Origin: a virus
Length of the DNA stretch: 64,000 bases
IMG/VR virus record: IMGVR_UViG_3300009506_000011
Span: 1-64,000 of that record
Direction: 5' to 3' (one strand)
In this document: piece after piece, positions 46,915-52,521 of the stretch
Layout of the letters: every line of letters starts with the position of its first letter
How positions within the stretch are numbered: position 1 is the first letter of the stretch
Made by a program: the position numbers and the translations under genes
Notes under the pieces: model-generated
Database searches by the model: none
What the model was told of the DNA's origin: nothing
Seen by the model: the letters and a program-made list of their open reading frames with translations, nothing else

Positions 46915-47301
46915 ATGCCGGATTTTCAGCTCAAGCCCATCGGCTCCGAGGTGGTCGACTGGGACGATCCCGCGACGACGGACACGCCGAGCCGGCTCAA
47001 CCCGGTGGTGCGCCACCCGCACAAGTATCACCGGATCTTCCGAAACTTTCCTCTCACGATCAAGGCCATCGTGGACGGCATCGAGGGACCCGCGGATGGC
47101 GCACTCGGTGGCCGGCTCTTCGCTTGGAGCTGGGTGGTCACGCGGGAGTCTGGCTACGCGCCGCCGATTCCGACGTCTGCCGGCTTCAGCAGCACGGTGG
47201 TTTTCCCGGCCTTCCACTTCCTCACCGGCCACTACGAGCTGCTGTGCTCGCGGCCTGACGGTGGCGCCGTAGGCGTCACCTTCGAGATCGAGGACACCTG
47301 A
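46915..47301 (+). CDS. hypothetical, probably virion-associated protein
   Basis: Codon style like the structural genes; TAGGCT-N5-ATG. Confidence 0.5.
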   Translation: MPDFQLKPIGSEVVDWDDPATTDTPSRLNPVVRHPHKYHRIFRNFPLTIKAIVDGIEGPADGALGGRLFAWSWVVTRESGYAPPIPTSAGFSSTVVFPAFHFLTGHYELLCSRPDGGAVGVTFEIEDT

Positions 47302-47990
47302 GACGGCCGGCCCCACTCATAGAGCGCAATGGCCAACGCCCCTTCAACGGTCAAGCCCGAAACGCGCCCCTGCATCGGAATGGTCGCGTAGCGAACCGGT
47401 AGTCCCCTGGGAAGCCCAGAGCTTTCCCCGCCGAGCAACAGCGTGTCAACTGTCTCGAAATCAACGCCATCGAGCGAGTTCAGGGTGCCGGTTTCCAACG
47501 CTAGCACCCCGTTACCGACTGGCAGTTTATCGATGCCAGCGACATCAACGCGCCCCTTCGCGCCGTAGAGGTTGCCGCTCAACCCACCAGCGCACCTGTG
47601 GGTAAGCAAGCTGCGCACGCCGAACGCCTCACAGGTCCGAACGGCGCGGTTGAGGTTGCGGCCGACGCGGTGCAGCACAACGCGTCCCACGGTGCACATG
47701 GTCAGCAAGCGGACCAGCAAGCCGGTACGGTCACGGCCGTGAAAGCAGTGCACGAGCAGCGGCCTGCCAGCCGACAGGGCGACGCTAAGCGCTGCTTGGG
47801 CTCCAGCGCCGCTGTAGCTTACTGGACTCTTCCGGTAGCCAATGCCGGCGCTGAGGCAGGCGCGCTCGACGACTGGCCTTGGTCGTTGCGTCAGGTCCAG
47901 TACGGCCTGCCCACCGGCGGCAGCAAAAGCAACGATATCTCTGCGCCTTGGCAGAGCTGAGCGCCAGATCCCTGGTAGAAACTCCTTCAT
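47232..47990 (-). CDS. Cys-based phosphatase (PTP/DSP) fused to a SpoU/TrmH RNA methyltransferase
   Basis: LVHCFHGRDRTG; then RNLNRAVRTCEAFG, LLLGGESSGLP, IPMQGRVSGLTV..A.AIALYE. Confidence 0.85.
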   Translation of the reverse strand: MKEFLPGIWRSALPRRRDIVAFAAAGGQAVLDLTQRPRPVVERACLSAGIGYRKSPVSYSGAGAQAALSVALSAGRPLLVHCFHGRDRTGLLVRLLTMCTVGRVVLHRVGRNLNRAVRTCEAFGVRSLLTHRCAGGLSGNLYGAKGRVDVAGIDKLPVGNGVLALETGTLNSLDGVDFETVDTLLLGGESSGLPRGLPVRYATIPMQGRVSGLTVEGALAIALYEWGRPSQVSSISKVTPTAPPSGREHSSS

Positions 47991-48748
47991 GTCGTTCCGT
48001 CTATGACTTCGCGATCTCCGCAGATTTCACGTAGCAGGTCTGGGTAATAAGCCAGCTCCCACTCAACACGCCCGAAGCCGGCACCTCGCTTGCCGCCTAG
48101 GCTCGCAACCCTGATCTTGCGGCGGTCAAAGAGTCCGCCTCGGGTCATAGCATAGGCAGGGTGGACAGGAAGCTTGTGCTTGTAGAGGTACGCGAAGACG
48201 TCTTCTGGCTGCCACCATCCAATCGGAGCGCAAGTGTGGGCCGTGGCGATGCCGTAGAACTTCATCCGCATGTTCCGGCCGCTGCTCTCCTCCCCTCGAA
48301 TGCCGGATACGTGGCGCTCGCCGTAGCGTTCGCGAGCCAGCGCGAAGCCGCGTTCAAGCGTCCCCTTTGCATGCCAGCCGTCGGAATCGCGTAAGCAATG
48401 CACGACGATCTCATCATACGGTAGCGGATACTTGCGCAGGAATCGGTCTCGGACCTCGCCACACTCCGGCGAGCATATGGGCTCAACGCGCACCCAAACA
48501 AGGGGCAGCCGCACCGTCTCACGATAGAACAGGCGCCACGCCAGGTGCGCCGCTACCGTTGAGTCCTTGCCCCAGCTCACACCGACGTAGCAGGGGCCTG
48601 ACTGTGCGAACTTGTGCAGCTCCCGGATGGCCTTCTGCTCCTTGCGCTCCAGTGCCCTGAGCCGAGCGCGCAGGTGGTCCTCACGCTCGCACGTCTTCCA
48701 ATGCGCGATGTCGTCTGAGCGATGTCGTGGCGAGGGAACAAGGGTCAT
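47987..48748 (-). CDS. cysH: type IV-B-associated CysH/PAPS-reductase-like protein
   Basis: VSWGKDS, SGIRGEES..R, CAPIGWW...DVFAYL...LPVHPAY; in the cas operon. Confidence 0.85.
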   Translation of the reverse strand: MTLVPSPRHRSDDIAHWKTCEREDHLRARLRALERKEQKAIRELHKFAQSGPCYVGVSWGKDSTVAAHLAWRLFYRETVRLPLVWVRVEPICSPECGEVRDRFLRKYPLPYDEIVVHCLRDSDGWHAKGTLERGFALARERYGERHVSGIRGEESSGRNMRMKFYGIATAHTCAPIGWWQPEDVFAYLYKHKLPVHPAYAMTRGGLFDRRKIRVASLGGKRGAGFGRVEWELAYYPDLLREICGDREVIDGTT

Positions 48749-49703
48749 GCCGCGCTAACCACAATCCGACCAAAGCCGAAGGCCGTGCGTCCACCGAGCC
48801 CCGGCCCATTGGCAGCGCACCTCAGCAGAAACTCGCCCACGGCGTTTGTGTCCACCACCACGTGCCCAACCCAACCGGAGATCAGGCCATACTTACCGCC
48901 CATGTCGACGACCTCCTTGCGGCTGTCGTGTGAGATCACTTTGAGCATGAGGCTGTCCCGGTCGAAGCTGTCCACGCCGACGCGCTCGGGCAGCTCGGTG
49001 GCTAGGGCCGCGGTCAGGGACGTCTGCGTCGGCTGGATTCTCAGTGTGGCCCTGCCGGTGGACTGGATGACGACAGGCGTCAGGGCGTCGATCCGCAGCT
49101 TGCGATGACCTCGTTTGGAGACGCGCGGGTACCGCGGTCGCCAGCAGGCGCCGAACCCCACCTCGACGGGCGCCTGAACAGCTCCGCTCCGACGCGCCGC
49201 TGCTCGTACAGGGCCCGTGCGGCCTCGGCATCACGAACGTAGATTGCCCAGCCGATGCCGCGCCTGTGGGGCAGCAACGCCCATTCTGGCCAGCGCTGGT
49301 GCTGCAATCCGAGCAGCGTGGTCATGAGCCCATGAAGGGCGCGTGTGTTGCGGTGGTCAACCGGCCAGCGCGGCTCTGGCTCGATGAACAGCTCGAAGCC
49401 CAGGCCCGGCATGTAACCGGCATACGGCGGAGCTCCGAGCAGCCAAGGCTGACGCTTGCTGCAGCCTCGCTTCGCTGCGCACCATCTGGCATTGCGCGCC
49501 CGAGCACTTGCCACAGACCGCGGCGTCGCCAGCTTGGAACGCTGCCGGCGCTTCCCTTGGCAAACCGGGGCGCCGCAGGTCTTCTGGTGCTTGCCCCTGG
49601 GCACGAATGGGGCCTCGCAGACTGCGCATCGGTACGTTGTGGAGATGCCGTCGGCGGTAGTGTAAACCTCAGCTTGGGACTGCACAGAGCTGCTCCTTGG
49701 CAT
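48745..49703 (-). pseudogene. cas6: Zn-finger-Cas6 fusion, split by a 1-nt frameshift near 49175
   Basis: RALHGLM..LL in the 5' frame; LTPVVI, GWVGHV and G-rich loop GLGGRTAFGFGRI in the 3' frame. Confidence 0.7.
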
Positions 49704-51298: not shown

Positions 51299-51740
51299 CT
51301 CTACCTCTCTTATCCCAGCACTGCAGACATTGTCCCATCGGCGGAAGATCATAGGACATGACCAATCCGCACGTTTTGCATGTACGTTTCCTGCTTTCGG
51401 CAGCAAGCCGAGCCATGGCCATCAGCAGGCCGTACTCCCGCTCAACTAGGTCGAGCCATTCACCGGCAGCTCCCAGCTCCCCGACAGCGGCGCCGAGGTC
51501 AACCAAAGCCCGGCAGCCATCCTTGCCGAGCGTCGGAAGCTGCAGCCCCCGCTGCATCGCCGTCGCCCACTCGTCCGGGCTGGCCGTCCGTCTGGCGGCG
51601 CTCAGCATCCTGTTCTGGATTTGCTCCCAGTGCTTCAGCGGGCTGCCGCCGGCGGCAAGGTAGGCCCTTCGCAGCTCGAGCAGCAGCTCCACGGTCTTGG
51701 TTCGCAGGCTTTCGCGCTGCTTTTCGTCCAGCCTTGGCAC
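51279..51740 (-). CDS. cas11: putative Cas11 small subunit with a C-terminal Zn ribbon
   Basis: Helical, about 150 aa, between csf1 and csf2; GGAGG Shine-Dalgarno. Confidence 0.65.
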   Translation of the reverse strand: MPRLDEKQRESLRTKTVELLLELRRAYLAAGGSPLKHWEQIQNRMLSAARRTASPDEWATAMQRGLQLPTLGKDGCRALVDLGAAVGELGAAGEWLDLVEREYGLLMAMARLAAESRKRTCKTCGLVMSYDLPPMGQCLQCWDKRGRDATEAI

Positions 51741-52485
51741 GCTTCGCCTCCTTTTCTGCGGCCATGCGCCGCTTGACTTGGTCCTCGTCGCGCTGCGCCA
51801 GCCACAGCGCCAGCGCGAACCATCCGCCGCCGCGCAGCTGTCCGCCTTTGGCCTCGAAGCGCTGCAACGTCTCGCTGCACAGCTGCCAGGCGCGCGCCTC
51901 GTAGCGCCCCGTTTCAAGCTCGGCTTTGGTGGCGCCAGCAGTCAGCAAAGACGCCAGCTCGTCAACAAGCGCCCATCCAGCCTCGTCGCCGGGAAGCCGG
52001 ATCCTGGTCTCGTCGAACAGCACCCAGCCGCCGGGACCAGGAGGGTTCACCGGGGTCCACGGCAACACGTGTTTCTGGCCGCTGTCGGCGATGGCCGCAA
52101 ACCAAACGCCACGGTGTGGCCGCCGGAGAAACTCAAGCACGACGGGCTTCTCGCCCTTGCTCGCGTTCAGGTACCGCGGCTCAGCCGCCGCGTCGTACAG
52201 GTGGGAGTAGTTGCGGTAGTTGCCGCCGAGCTTCTTACCGGGGGCTGGGGGGCGCCCGGGGACCGGGGAAAGCCTGGCACAGAAGTAGACGCACGGCTCG
52301 CAGACCCATTTGCTCTCTGGACAGCGAACGCGGTTTTGGCCTGTGAAGGTTGAGCCGTTCCACAAGCTGACTGGCTGGCCCCGTGTCAGCGAGGCGGCGC
52401 AAAGCCAGCAGCGACCATCGGCCGGCGCGCAATCGGTGTGCATCGGAGCGCCGAGGTGGTGGTGCAGCAGGCGCGTGGCGCTCAT
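51499..52485 (-). CDS. csf1: type IV large subunit Csf1 (Cas8-like)
   Basis: CWLC...TFT...VCEPC zinc finger, YRNYSH, IADSGQKH.LPW.PVN. Confidence 0.85.
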   Translation of the reverse strand: MSATRLLHHHLGAPMHTDCAPADGRCWLCAASLTRGQPVSLWNGSTFTGQNRVRCPESKWVCEPCVYFCARLSPVPGRPPAPGKKLGGNYRNYSHLYDAAAEPRYLNASKGEKPVVLEFLRRPHRGVWFAAIADSGQKHVLPWTPVNPPGPGGWVLFDETRIRLPGDEAGWALVDELASLLTAGATKAELETGRYEARAWQLCSETLQRFEAKGGQLRGGGWFALALWLAQRDEDQVKRRMAAEKEAKRAKAGRKAARKPANQDRGAAARAAKGLPCRRRQPAEALGANPEQDAERRQTDGQPGRVGDGDAAGAAASDARQGWLPGFG

Positions 52486-52492
52486 GACGGGC

Positions 52493-52521
52493 ATCCTGCC
52501 AGCCGCTAGCGTGCTAGTCAA
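52493..52521 (-). promoter_or_regulatory. promoter of the cas operon
   Basis: TTGACTAG...N17-CAGGAT-N7-ATG(52485). Confidence 0.6.

What the first reader, a model, noticed from the sequence alone, without database searches (positions are those of the whole stretch)
47232..52521. Phage-borne, array-less type IV-B-like Cas operon extended with Cas6 and an RNA-modifying enzyme
Seen: one promoter-driven operon of overlapping genes, csf1-cas11-csf2-csf3-(ZnF-cas6)-cysH-(phosphatase-SpoU), inserted between two probable virion genes. No cas1/2, DinG, nuclease or CRISPR array appears in 64 kb. Known: IV-B loci are csf1/cas11/csf2/csf3 plus cysH, normally lack cas6 and arrays, and have no established function. 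Inference: the extra Cas6 and 2'-O-methyltransferase/phosphatase genes suggest a repurposed complex that makes or captures guide RNAs (host crRNAs or phage RNAs). It could perform guided nucleic-acid modification or act as an anti-CRISPR, rather than cutting targets.
Basis: partly seen in the sequence, partly recalled or inferred. Interest (0 to 1): 0.92.

Follow-up and report, generated by a model that had tools for sequence, protein, structure and literature searches.

The report
Phage IV-B Cas operon, RNA-modifying add-ons
A complete 84-kb tailed phage carries a CRISPR-derived type IV-B gene set with no CRISPR array, plus a Cas6 RNA-cutting gene (broken by a one-base deletion in this strain) and a fused phosphatase/RNA ribose-methyltransferase; this enzyme pair recurs beside such gene sets in many phages and suggests that these unexplained complexes modify RNA rather than cut targets.

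Summary
Window 52521..47232 (minus strand) is one run of overlapping genes: csf1, cas11, csf2, csf3, ZnF-cas6, cysH-like and a Cys-phosphatase::SPOUT fusion. Type IV models match at full length. The record is a complete 84,186-bp phage with terminal repeats. It has no CRISPR array, Cas1, DinG-type helicase or Cas12m.

Corrections:
- cas6 is split here by a 1-nt deletion at 49167/49168. Contigs from two other studies and the orthologue L030 are intact.
- The flanks are not shown to be virion genes; the region holds recombination and DNA-metabolism genes.
- No promoter was found.
- Cas6 is common in this Csf2 clade (9 of 15 loci).

Additions:
- This SPOUT family lay beside csf/cysH genes in 24 of 24 distinct loci and was always contiguous with cysH where both genes were visible. 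A phosphatase of one of three unrelated folds accompanied it in 13.
- The same seven-gene order recurs in L004 and L030.
- The Csf1 tail, encoded inside cas11 in another frame, ends in a sliding-clamp-like QLxLF motif in relatives. The motif is degenerate here.

Best reading (0.42): a Csf scaffold on RNA that presents RNA to the three enzymes. This scan noted the SPOUT/phosphatase link before on other phage DNA. I found no paper describing it.

The parts
51499..52521 (-). csf1 (Cas8-like large subunit, N-terminal zinc-finger region). The start is uncertain: TTG 52521 or an ATG about 27-36 nt downstream.
   Evidence: PADLOC Csf1_0_IV 2.4e-23, positions 7-223 of 227. TIGR03114 2e-6 on the N-terminus. 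39-55% identical to Csf1 of L002-L004.
51499..51740 (-). Csf1 C-terminal low-complexity tail, encoded inside cas11 in another reading frame. It carries a conserved EALG motif and ends in ...RQGWLPGFG.
   Evidence: Tails of about 15 relatives end in QLSLF, QLGLF, QLDLF, QLALF or QRSLF, which resemble the sliding-clamp-binding motif. L030 ends in QSRLPGFG. The GC3 signal switches to the cas11 frame here.
51279..51740 (-). cas11 (small subunit, 153 aa), GTG start behind AAGGAGG. It has a C-terminal CxxC...CxxC zinc ribbon that relatives lack.
   Evidence: PADLOC type IV Cas11 2.1e-4, positions 5-118 of 120. Alignment with Cas11 of L002, L004 and others fixes the start. The ribbon region 51301-51397 is absent from the X3 contig and from L030.
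50312..51298 (-). csf2 (Cas7 backbone subunit).
   Evidence: PADLOC Csf2_0_IV 6.8e-40. TIGR03115 1.3e-10. The best solved relative is type IV-B Csf2, 7jhy, 4.8e-7.
49669..50319 (-). csf3 (Cas5).
   Evidence: PADLOC Csf3_0_IV 1.9e-34. TIGR03116 1.5e-12. Csf3 of 7xfz 1.3e-7.
49170..49703 (-). cas6, N-terminal piece: a four-cysteine zinc ribbon, a basic linker and the first RRM-like domain with the conserved RN.R.LHG motif. As sequenced, this frame runs on out of register to a stop at 49080.
   Evidence: 72% identical to the intact orthologue L030:3186-4112. The zinc ribbon is conserved in L011, L016, L022 and L030.
49167..49170 (-). Frameshift site. The minus-strand run is CCC where relatives have CCCC, a 1-nt deletion.
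   Evidence: Contigs of runs X2 and X3, from two other studies, carry an extra G behind + strand 49167. The window and its likely source run X1 (depth about 27) do not (table 4). L030 reads ...ELFRRPVQV... in one frame.
48745..49167 (-). cas6, C-terminal piece: the second RRM-like domain with the glycine-rich loop GLGGRTAFGFGR.
   Evidence: PF10040 Cas6 0.0045. 73% identical to L030. The AF2 model of the L030 orthologue matches Cas6 structures, 6fjw 2e-7, with the top 38 hits all Cas6 or Cas6-family (Cse3) chains.
47987..48748 (-). cysH-like PP-loop ATP pyrophosphatase (CasCysH-like).
   Evidence: PF01507 2.8e-8. The PP-loop S.GKDS and the EES..R motif are invariant in 14 homologues, and no C-terminal cysteine is conserved.
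47691..47990 (-). Cys-phosphatase (PTP/DSP-like) domain of the fusion protein, with the active-site loop HCFHGRDRTG (CX5R).
   Evidence: PF13350 6.9e-6. C82 and R88 are invariant in 16 homologues. Profile hits include TpbA, PtpB, Siw14-like phosphatases and baculovirus polynucleotide 5'-phosphatase.
47232..47690 (-). Minimal SPOUT (TrmL/TrmH-like) RNA 2'-O-methyltransferase domain of the fusion protein, followed by a poorly modelled tail.
   Evidence: PF00588 1.8e-6; over the cut-off when summed in frame. The AF2 model has pLDDT 87, and the top Foldseek hits are RlmB, TrmH and TrmL/YibK. SPOUT motifs are invariant.

Best explanation
This is a phage accessory module of type IV-B descent that modifies RNA instead of cutting a guided target.

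Shown by sequence and fold: the four Csf proteins (Csf1, Cas11, Csf2, Csf3) are intact and under purifying selection. They are translationally coupled to three enzymes: a PP-loop ATP pyrophosphatase (CysH-like), a Cys-phosphatase and a minimal SPOUT ribose 2'-O-methyltransferase.

Inferred: as in the solved IV-B complex, Csf2 and Cas11 polymerise on an RNA, and this filament presents RNA to the enzyme block. The phosphatase removes a terminal phosphate, either a 2',3'-cyclic or 3' phosphate such as Cas6-type cleavage leaves, or a 5' tri- or diphosphate. The SPOUT domain methylates a ribose 2'-OH, which protects that position from 2'-OH-dependent RNases. The CysH-like enzyme adenylylates the RNA or a base in it.

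Where Cas6 is intact (close relatives), it would bind and cut a hairpin RNA to seed or cap the complex. In this strain a recent 1-nt deletion has split it, so the module would here work without Cas6 cleavage, as it does in the many relatives that have no cas6.

The Csf1 tail may dock the complex on the host sliding clamp. The motif is degenerate here.
For: - Csf identity and completeness.
- Gene coupling: overlapping junctions.
- Purifying selection on every gene against L030, dN/dS 0.10-0.25.
- Catalytic motifs of all three enzymes are invariant.
- The SPOUT fold matches only RNA 2'-O-methyltransferases at the top of the list.
- Exclusive linkage: this SPOUT family sits beside csf/cysH genes in 24 of 24 distinct loci across GC 39-67%. 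It is contiguous with cysH in every locus where both are visible. In L006 and L043 it lies between cysH and csf3.
- Non-homologous replacement of the phosphatase: PTP in 9 loci plus the window, HAD in 3, calcineurin-like in 1; fused on either side of SPOUT or encoded separately. This argues that phosphatase activity itself is required next to the methyltransferase.
- The seven-gene order is conserved in L004 and L030.
- Established knowledge: the solved IV-B Csf complex assembles on heterogeneous non-CRISPR RNA (PMC7937560). Cas6 products carry a 2',3'-cyclic phosphate. HAD and calcineurin-type phosphatases heal RNA 3' ends in T4 and Clostridium Pnkp, and Hen1 then 2'-O-methylates the healed end. 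Cys-phosphatases include RNA 5'-phosphatases.
Against: - No RNA substrate was identified. The genome has no array, and I found no conserved non-coding hairpin shared with relatives, no Rfam family and no tRNA.
- There is no RNA ligase or kinase to complete a repair pathway.
- In the window's own Csf2 clade, SPOUT is a minority accessory (1 of 15 loci found through Csf2), so it cannot be the core function of IV-B.
- About 11 SPOUT loci show no phosphatase, though several of these contigs are short.
- The clamp-like Csf1 tail points to DNA or replication forks rather than free RNA.
- No physical contact between the enzymes and the Csf complex has been shown.
- Other phage IV-B loci noted by this scan pair with DNA-modifying enzymes instead.
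Confidence: 0.42

Rival explanations
1. Replication-fork or DNA-directed function. The Csf complex is recruited by the Csf1 tail to the host or phage sliding clamp. It acts on RNA:DNA hybrids there (primers, R-loops), and the enzymes alter the RNA strand (5'-triphosphate removal, 2'-O-methylation) or the DNA, so as to control replication of the host, the phage or a competitor.
For: - Csf1 tails in about 15 relatives end in QLSLF, QLGLF, QLDLF or QLALF at or near the C-terminus, and an upstream EALG motif is conserved, although the tail is encoded in overlap with cas11.
- The operon sits among recombination and DNA-metabolism genes.
- Cys-phosphatases include RNA 5'-triphosphatases (1yn9).
- Type IV-A and IV-C complexes bind dsDNA (PMC13676074).
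Against: - In this window and in L030 the motif is degenerate (QGWLPGFG, QSRLPGFG).
- L004-L010 lack such a tail.
- Clamp binding is inferred from a short motif only.
- The host and its clamp are unknown.
Confidence: 0.17
2. Counter-defence by acting on host RNAs. The phage complex sequesters or chemically blocks host crRNAs or pre-crRNAs, for example by methylating the 2'-OH that Cas6-type cleavage needs. Alternatively it immunises tRNAs against host anticodon nucleases.
For: - It is phage-borne, array-less and carries its own Cas6-family RNA binder.
- 2'-O-methylation blocks 2'-OH-dependent RNases (established chemistry).
- The minimal SPOUT domain is closest to tRNA wobble methyltransferases TrmL/CspR.
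- IV-B presence correlates negatively with other CRISPR systems, and crRNA neutralisation was proposed in PMC7038947.
Against: - The same authors judged such a complex anti-CRISPR unlikely.
- Cas6 is dispensable: it is absent from many SPOUT loci and broken here.
- The host and its repeats are unknown.
- Nothing in the sequence ties the module to a particular host RNA.
- The heterologously expressed IV-B complex did not load co-expressed crRNA.
Confidence: 0.13
3. Loose co-location. The CysH-like, phosphatase and SPOUT genes are ordinary phage RNA or nucleotide-metabolism genes that happen to sit next to a Csf cassette and work independently of it. The cassette itself could be decaying in this phage, as the cas6 frameshift might suggest.
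For: - cas6 is frameshifted.
- SPOUT is rare in the nearest Csf2 clade.
- Phages often carry stand-alone PAPS-reductase-like genes, and this phage has a second one at 43624-44499.
Against: - 24 of 24 linkage across very different phages, with embedding between csf genes in L006 and L043.
- ATGA coupling between the genes.
- All other ORFs are intact with dN/dS 0.10-0.25. Both cas6 halves are still at 0.18, and an otherwise identical contig lacks the deletion, so the break is very recent.
Confidence: 0.1
4. Small-molecule chemistry. The CysH-like enzyme makes an adenylylated nucleotide signal or analogue, which the phosphatase and methyltransferase tailor. The Csf complex acts as sensor or regulator.
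For: - CasCysH has been proposed to AMPylate substrates or make second messengers (cited in PMC13676074).
- HAD and PTP phosphatases often act on small phosphorylated molecules; the profile hits Siw14-like and DUF442 enzymes.
Against: - Known SPOUT enzymes act on tRNA or rRNA, with one reported protein substrate (abstract of PMC9508554). From background knowledge, none is known to act on a small molecule.
- All top structural neighbours are RNA methyltransferases.
Confidence: 0.06

Closest known systems
Subtype IV-B CRISPR-Cas (Csf1-Cas11-Csf2-Csf3 plus CysH-like), e.g. Mycobacterium sp. JS623 plasmid, PDB 7JHY (PMC7937560)
   Same: - The same five gene families in the canonical order.
- No array, adaptation genes, helicase or nuclease.
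- Csf2 is closest to 7jhy among solved structures for the window protein alone.
- The CysH-like protein has a PP-loop but no conserved redox cysteine.
   Different: - It is carried by a lytic-type tailed phage genome rather than an actinobacterial plasmid.
- It has a Cas6 gene (ZnF-fused, frameshifted here) and a phosphatase::SPOUT gene.
- The Csf1 tail is encoded inside cas11.
- Cas11 has a zinc ribbon.
Subtype IV-A CRISPR-Cas (Csf1-3, Cas6/Csf5, DinG, array)
   Same: Type IV backbone proteins plus a Cas6-family protein. The fold of the orthologous Cas6 also matches type IV-A Cas6, 6njy and 7xfz_H.
   Different: - No DinG and no array.
- Cas11 and CysH-like genes are present.
- Csf2 matches IV-A structures far more weakly than IV-B or IV-C ones: 1e-15 against 1e-33 to 1e-37.
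Bacterial Pnkp-Hen1 and phage T4 Pnkp/Rnl RNA repair (functional analogy only)
   Same: An RNA-end phosphatase (calcineurin-like in Clostridium Pnkp, HAD in T4 Pnkp) paired with a ribose 2'-O-methyltransferase and an ATP alpha-phosphate-using enzyme. The logic is to heal the end and then protect it by methylation.
   Different: - No kinase or ligase gene.
- The methyltransferase is SPOUT, not Hen1 (Rossmann fold).
- The ATP-using enzyme is a PP-loop protein, not a lysine nucleotidyltransferase.
- The genes are embedded in a Cas operon.
TrmL/CspR and TrmH (stand-alone SPOUT tRNA 2'-O-methyltransferases)
   Same: Minimal knotted SPOUT domain of about 135 aa with the three motifs. Structural neighbours include 5co4, 4jal, 9j5p, 1v2x and 1gz0.
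   Different: - It is fused to a Cys-phosphatase.
- The family is found only beside csf/cysH genes in the collections searched.
- The substrate is unknown.
Box C/D sRNP (archaeal and eukaryotic RNA-guided 2'-O-methylation; analogy for the novel case)
   Same: A ribonucleoprotein scaffold combined with a ribose 2'-O-methyltransferase.
   Different: - No homology.
- No guide RNA was identified here.
- Fibrillarin has a Rossmann fold.

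Membership tests
Subtype IV-B CRISPR-Cas | Csf1 large subunit | tested here: met
   PADLOC Csf1_0_IV 2.4e-23 over 217 of 227 positions; TIGR03114 2e-6.
Subtype IV-B CRISPR-Cas | Cas11-like small subunit between csf1 and csf2 | tested here: met
   PADLOC type IV Cas11 2.1e-4, near full length. Alignment with relatives' Cas11, and a GTG start with a ribosome-binding site.
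Subtype IV-B CRISPR-Cas | Csf2 (Cas7) and Csf3 (Cas5) of type IV | tested here: met
   Csf2_0_IV 6.8e-40 and Csf3_0_IV 1.9e-34. 7jhy is the best solved match for the window Csf2. The 10-sequence profile scores IV-C Cas7c (4.8e-37) and IV-B 7jhy (6.5e-33) about equally, and no Cas7 tree was built.
Subtype IV-B CRISPR-Cas | Adjacent cysH-like gene with a PP-loop and without the redox cysteine of true CysH | tested here: met
   PF01507 2.8e-8. S.GKDS is invariant. The only C-terminal Cys of the window protein is not conserved even in L030.
Subtype IV-B CRISPR-Cas | No DinG/RecD helicase, no Cas10-HD, no adaptation genes | tested here: met
   No PF13307 and no Cas1 in the whole 84-kb genome. Csf1, not Cas10, is the large subunit.
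Subtype IV-B CRISPR-Cas | No CRISPR array | tested here: met
   k-mer and tandem-repeat scans of the complete genome. The only repeat cluster, at 63364-63534, is a set of 14-bp palindromes spaced 10-11 bp apart, not an array.
Subtype IV-B CRISPR-Cas | No Cas6 | tested here: not met
   A Cas6 gene is present, though frameshifted. Print records rare exceptions, 12 instances (PMC7038947). I therefore file this as a IV-B variant.
Cas6 endoribonuclease | Double RRM/ferredoxin-like fold with a C-terminal glycine-rich loop | tested here: met
   Tested on the intact orthologue L030:3186-4112, which is 72-73% identical to the window pieces. AF2 pLDDT is 79, and the Foldseek top 38 hits are all Cas6 or Cas6-family (Cse3) chains, best 6fjw 2e-7. 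Sequence models alone are weak (0.0045).
Cas6 endoribonuclease | Intact reading frame in this genome | tested here: not met
   A 1-nt deletion at 49167/49168 relative to the X2 and X3 contigs and to L030.
Cas6 endoribonuclease | Catalytic residues and a cognate repeat hairpin | tested here: inconclusive
   A conserved RN.R.LHG histidine lies in the first domain, but no substrate RNA was found.
SPOUT (SpoU/TrmH/TrmL) RNA 2'-O-methyltransferase | Knotted SPOUT fold with the three conserved motifs | tested here: met
   AF2 pLDDT 87; Foldseek hits RlmB, TrmH and TrmL at 1e-8 to 1e-4. Motif residues N112, R115/R118, G187, E189, G192 and T214-E216 are invariant. The Pfam score of 28.6 is just under the 29.7 cut-off and reaches 30.6 when summed in frame.
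SPOUT (SpoU/TrmH/TrmL) RNA 2'-O-methyltransferase | SAM-dependent methylation of an RNA ribose | not testable with these tools
   Needs an enzyme assay.
Cys-based PTP/DSP phosphatase | HCX5R(S/T) phosphate-binding loop in a PTP fold | tested here: met
   HCFHGRDRTG, with C82 and R88 invariant. PF13350 6.9e-6 is over its cut-off. PDB profile hits TpbA 4e-8.
Pnkp-Hen1 type RNA repair system | Polynucleotide kinase and RNA ligase together with phosphatase and methyltransferase | tested here: not met
   No RNA ligase family match in the genome. No kinase-like family was among the matches to any operon protein. The resemblance is functional analogy only.

The most novel reading that the evidence does not exclude
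The Csf filament is a CRISPR-derived platform for directed RNA chemistry. It is loaded on a hairpin-tagged or other RNA (by Cas6 where that is intact) and positions the CysH-like adenylyltransferase and the phosphatase::SPOUT enzyme. Defined riboses or ends of the bound RNA, or of a base-paired RNA, are then 2'-O-methylated, possibly at clamp-marked replication forks. This would be a prokaryotic-virus counterpart of box C/D guided methylation and the first assigned function for type IV-B.
Probability: 0.12. Interest if true: 0.9.

Novelty: new variant of a known kind. Interest (0 to 1): 0.6.

Why it matters
Type IV-B is a CRISPR-Cas subtype whose function is still unknown. A September 2026 paper still calls its function and full architecture unclear (PMC13676074).

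Two accessory activities of known chemistry, RNA ribose methylation and phosphate removal, are tightly and repeatedly wired to the CysH-like gene in phage IV-B operons. The phosphatase has been recruited from three unrelated folds. This gives concrete and inexpensive experiments: which RNA is bound, whether it is methylated, and what its ends look like.

The natural pair of alleles, with cas6 intact or split by one base, offers a ready-made comparison for the role of Cas6.

If the reading is wrong, the linkage statistics still constrain any other model.

Tried and rejected
- Close DNA relatives in annotated phage and plasmid collections: none.
- A CRISPR array in relative L003 looked at first like an array for IV-B: six 37-nt repeats at 12582-12995. 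The adjacent 665-aa ORF is a Cas12m homologue (2.1e-24), and the repeat has a Cas12-style 3' hairpin. I therefore assign the array to that type V system. The repeat is absent from the window and from other viral contigs.
- The 63.3-kb repeat cluster was rejected as an array.
- Search for a conserved non-coding element or solo repeat shared by the genome and 15 related loci: only coding similarity was found.
- Programmed frameshifting at the cas6 break: there is no slippery heptamer and only a three-base C-run, and relatives simply have one more base. A plain deletion is more likely. Low-level heterogeneity cannot be seen in contigs.
- Longer fusion proteins containing this SPOUT domain: none found, which is weak evidence. 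P0045, listed as Cas6+SpoU, is a 206-aa chimera of a truncated SPOUT domain and a Cas6 C-terminal half, so I give it little weight.
- No RNA holder was listed among the public runs, so nothing can be said on expression.
- Sigma-70 promoter scan: none found. Rfam and tRNA scans: nothing.

Full report
WHAT IS THERE

The window is bases 1-64000 of a complete 84,186-bp virus record with a 144-bp direct terminal repeat. It encodes a major head protein, tail sheath, tape measure and baseplate at about 4.5-31 kb, so it is a contractile-tailed phage. GC content is about 67% throughout, and the operon does not stand out.

On the minus strand, from 52521 down to 47232, lie seven genes with overlapping junctions:
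- csf1, 51499-52521.
- cas11, 51279-51740.
- csf2, 50312-51298.
- csf3, 49669-50319.
- cas6, in two pieces: 49170-49703 and 48745-49167.
- A cysH-like gene, 47987-48748.
- A phosphatase::SPOUT fusion gene, 47232-47990.

The junction overlaps are 20 nt (cas11/csf2), 8 nt (csf2/csf3), 35 nt (csf3/cas6) and two ATGA overlaps (cas6/cysH and cysH/SPOUT).

IDENTITY OF THE PARTS

General libraries gave weak but consistent hits:
- TIGR03114, TIGR03115 and TIGR03116 for Csf1, Csf2 and Csf3.
- PF01507 for the CysH-like protein.
- PF00588 and PF13350 for the fusion protein.
- PF10040 at 0.0045 for the second cas6 piece.

Type IV-specific models settle the core: Csf1_0_IV 2.4e-23, type IV Cas11 2.1e-4, Csf2_0_IV 6.8e-40 and Csf3_0_IV 1.9e-34, each near full length. 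Among solved structures the window Csf2 is closest to the IV-B Csf2 of 7jhy, and Csf3 to type IV Csf3. A profile of ten Csf2 sequences scores IV-C Cas7c and IV-B 7jhy about equally, and IV-A much lower. With Csf1 rather than Cas10 as the large subunit, and with the cysH-like gene present, the locus is IV-B by the published criteria.

The CysH-like protein keeps the PP-loop S.GKDS and the EES..R motif. It has no conserved C-terminal cysteine.

The fusion protein has an invariant HCFHGRDRTG loop (CX5R) and invariant SPOUT motifs in 16 homologues. Its AF2 model (pLDDT 87) matches RlmB, TrmH and TrmL/YibK RNA 2'-O-methyltransferases. The N-terminal half matches a DUF442-type phosphatase. The profile also hits TpbA, PtpB, Siw14-like enzymes and, weakly, baculovirus polynucleotide 5'-phosphatase.

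CAS6 IS BROKEN IN THIS STRAIN ONLY

An intact single ORF in relative L002 aligns first to one frame and then to the other.

I laid public contigs on the operon. Contigs from two other studies both carry one extra G behind + strand 49167. One is X2, a 262-nt contig that is otherwise identical. The other is X3, a 6.8-kb contig at depth 26.5 and about 95% identity. The extra base turns the minus-strand CCC into CCCC and fuses the two pieces into a 319-codon gene. The window and its probable source run (X1, marine sediment, depth about 27) lack that base.

The closest intact orthologue, L030:3186-4112, is 72-73% identical and reads straight through the site. Its AF2 model (pLDDT 79) hits Cas6 or Cas6-family (Cse3) chains in all of its top 38 matches, including a type IV Cas6.

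Both halves of the window gene still show dN/dS of about 0.18 against L030, like the other genes at 0.10-0.25. The break is therefore very recent. Less likely, it is a consensus error in a three-base run.

The N-terminal four-cysteine ribbon and basic linker are conserved in L011, L016, L022 and L030.

DETAILS OF CSF1 AND CAS11

GC3 shifts from the csf1 frame to the cas11 frame at about 51830, although csf1 stays open to 51499. cas11 begins at GTG 51740, six bases behind AAGGAGG, in register with relatives' Cas11. The last 80 or so codons of csf1 are thus encoded inside cas11.

This tail is real. In about 15 relatives it carries an EALG motif and ends in QLSLF, QLGLF, QLDLF, QLALF or QRSLF, which resemble the bacterial sliding-clamp-binding motif. 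In the window and in L030 the ending is the degenerate QGWLPGFG or QSRLPGFG.

The C-terminal zinc ribbon of the window Cas11 is missing from the X3 contig and from L030.

NOTHING ELSE CRISPR-LIKE IN THE GENOME

- No array was found by k-mer or tandem-repeat scans of all 84 kb.
- There is no Cas1, DinG-type helicase domain or Cas12m.
- There is no tRNA, Rfam family or RNA ligase.
- The repeat cluster at 63364-63534 is a set of CCGGAGTACTCCGG palindromes spaced 10-11 bp apart. This fits protein-binding sites, not a CRISPR array.

NEIGHBOURHOOD

The two flanking ORFs have no family match. Nearby genes are SbcC-like, RecT-like, RecE-like, ParB/methyltransferase-like and a second, unrelated PAPS-reductase-like gene. 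The 'virion gene' flanks are not supported. No sigma-70-like promoter was detected.

RELATIVES

Searching viral and genome contigs with Csf2 is unbiased with respect to accessories. It gave 15 distinct loci of the same clade at 41-60% identity. Nine have Cas6, mostly upstream of csf1. Seven have an unannotated protein of about 90 aa. One has a lone PTP phosphatase (L011). Only one (L004) has the SPOUT gene.

Searching with the phosphatase::SPOUT family gave 24 distinct SPOUT-bearing loci in viral and metagenome contigs, spanning GC 39-67%.
- All 24 have csf or cysH genes beside the SPOUT gene.
- Wherever both are visible, cysH and SPOUT (with or without a phosphatase) are contiguous, in either order.
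- In L006 and L043 they sit between csf2 and csf3.
- A phosphatase accompanies SPOUT in 13 of the 24. It is PTP in nine (fused N- or C-terminally, or separate), HAD in three and calcineurin-like in one.
- L004 (an 89-kb phage contig, also binned in a Pigmentiphaga MAG) and L030 have the same seven-gene order as the window. L004 uses a different Cas6 family, Cmx6-like, 1e-36.

The CRISPR array found in L003 lies next to a Cas12m homologue and is best assigned to it.

MECHANISM

Shown:
- An intact, selected Csf backbone is translationally coupled to three enzymes whose catalytic motifs are conserved.
- This SPOUT family is exclusively linked to cysH/csf genes in the collections searched.
- Unrelated phosphatases have been recruited repeatedly.

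Inferred:
- The Csf2/Cas11 filament forms on RNA, as in 7JHY, where the RNA was heterogeneous and not a crRNA (PMC7937560).
- The enzymes act on that RNA: phosphate removal at an end, ribose 2'-O-methylation, and an adenylylation step by the PP-loop enzyme.
- This heal-then-methylate logic is that of Pnkp-Hen1 RNA repair, and HAD and calcineurin-type phosphatases do exactly this job in Pnkp enzymes. The kinase and ligase are missing here, so this is analogy, not membership.
- Cas6, where intact, would supply a cut, hairpin-tagged RNA with a 2',3'-cyclic phosphate. It is optional across the family and inactive here as sequenced.

I give this reading 0.42. The rivals are a clamp-directed function at replication forks (0.17), counter-defence on host crRNA or tRNA (0.13), mere co-location (0.10) and small-molecule chemistry (0.06).

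COMPARISON WITH PRINT AND WITH THIS SCAN

- Phage-borne IV-B systems are known (PMC10848311).
- Cas6 in IV-B is recorded as rare (PMC7038947).
- The CysH-like protein has been proposed to modify a bound nucleic acid or to AMPylate (PMC8175902; PMC13676074).
- I found no paper linking a SPOUT methyltransferase or a phosphatase to type IV systems. The library searched is limited to open-access papers.
- Earlier notes of this scan report the SPOUT/phosphatase link, Cas6 and the clamp-like tail on other phage genomes. My census reproduces those claims independently. What it adds is listed under VERDICT.

VERDICT

This is a new variant of a known kind (type IV-B) and a good experimental entry point to an open question.

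It is not a first sighting within this scan. The additions here are the allele-level evidence on cas6, the three-fold phosphatase replacement counted on one set of loci, the clade-level frequencies, and the reassignment of the L003 array to Cas12m.

Noticed in passing
window 63364-63534: A cluster of at least seven copies of the 14-bp palindrome CCGGAGTACTCCGG, or close variants, spaced 10-11 bp apart or in multiples of that, in a non-coding stretch. It looks like phased protein-binding sites (iterons or operators, perhaps an origin or a regulatory switch), not a CRISPR array.
   Followed up: partly
window 43624-44499 (-) and 42754-43491 (-): A second, unrelated PAPS-reductase-like gene (phrog_424, 1.5e-57) lies next to a ParB-like/DNA-methyltransferase-like gene. 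This is the common phage pairing, separate from the IV-B cysH-like gene.
   Followed up: no
L003:10574-12571 and L003:12582-12995: A related phage contig carries a Cas12m homologue (PDB 23vw, 2.1e-24) with a six-repeat CRISPR array (37-nt repeats with a 3' hairpin) directly downstream of its IV-B operon. A type V-M system thus travels next to IV-B.
   Followed up: partly
L003:10290-10586, L025:3147-3446, L037:1000-1260, L034:7980-8282; fused to the Cas6 C-terminus in L004 and L022: A protein or domain of about 90 aa with the motif GRWF.TPHAV..Y.ER ... ELWRGPKP.R ... PQLVTVL recurs inside or beside these IV-B operons in about 11 distinct loci. It has no Pfam or NCBIfam match and is absent from the window genome.
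   Followed up: partly
window 51301-51397: The C-terminal CxxC...CxxC zinc ribbon of Cas11 is present in this phage. It is replaced by 17 other bases in the 95%-identical X3 contig and is absent from L030. It is a strain-level indel in a Cas subunit.
   Followed up: partly
window 47300-48750 versus run X3: In the X3 relative, the cysH-like plus phosphatase::SPOUT stretch is replaced by 1449 letters that do not align at 85% identity, while the flanks align at about 95%. This could be a diverged allele or a cassette exchange; it is not resolved.
   Followed up: no
window 25174-25333: A 60-nt stretch is repeated exactly 99 nt downstream, within the tail and baseplate gene region at about 25.2 kb. 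This may be a repeat within a coding sequence.
   Followed up: no
L006:5090-5902: A Vsr/DUF559-type endonuclease ORF with low GC3 is inserted between cas11 and csf2 of a related IV-B operon. It looks like a mobile or homing insertion.
   Followed up: no
L011:8592-9038: A stand-alone PTP-type phosphatase lies between csf3 and cysH in a IV-B locus that has no SPOUT gene. The phosphatase can therefore accompany the CysH-like gene without the methyltransferase.
   Followed up: no
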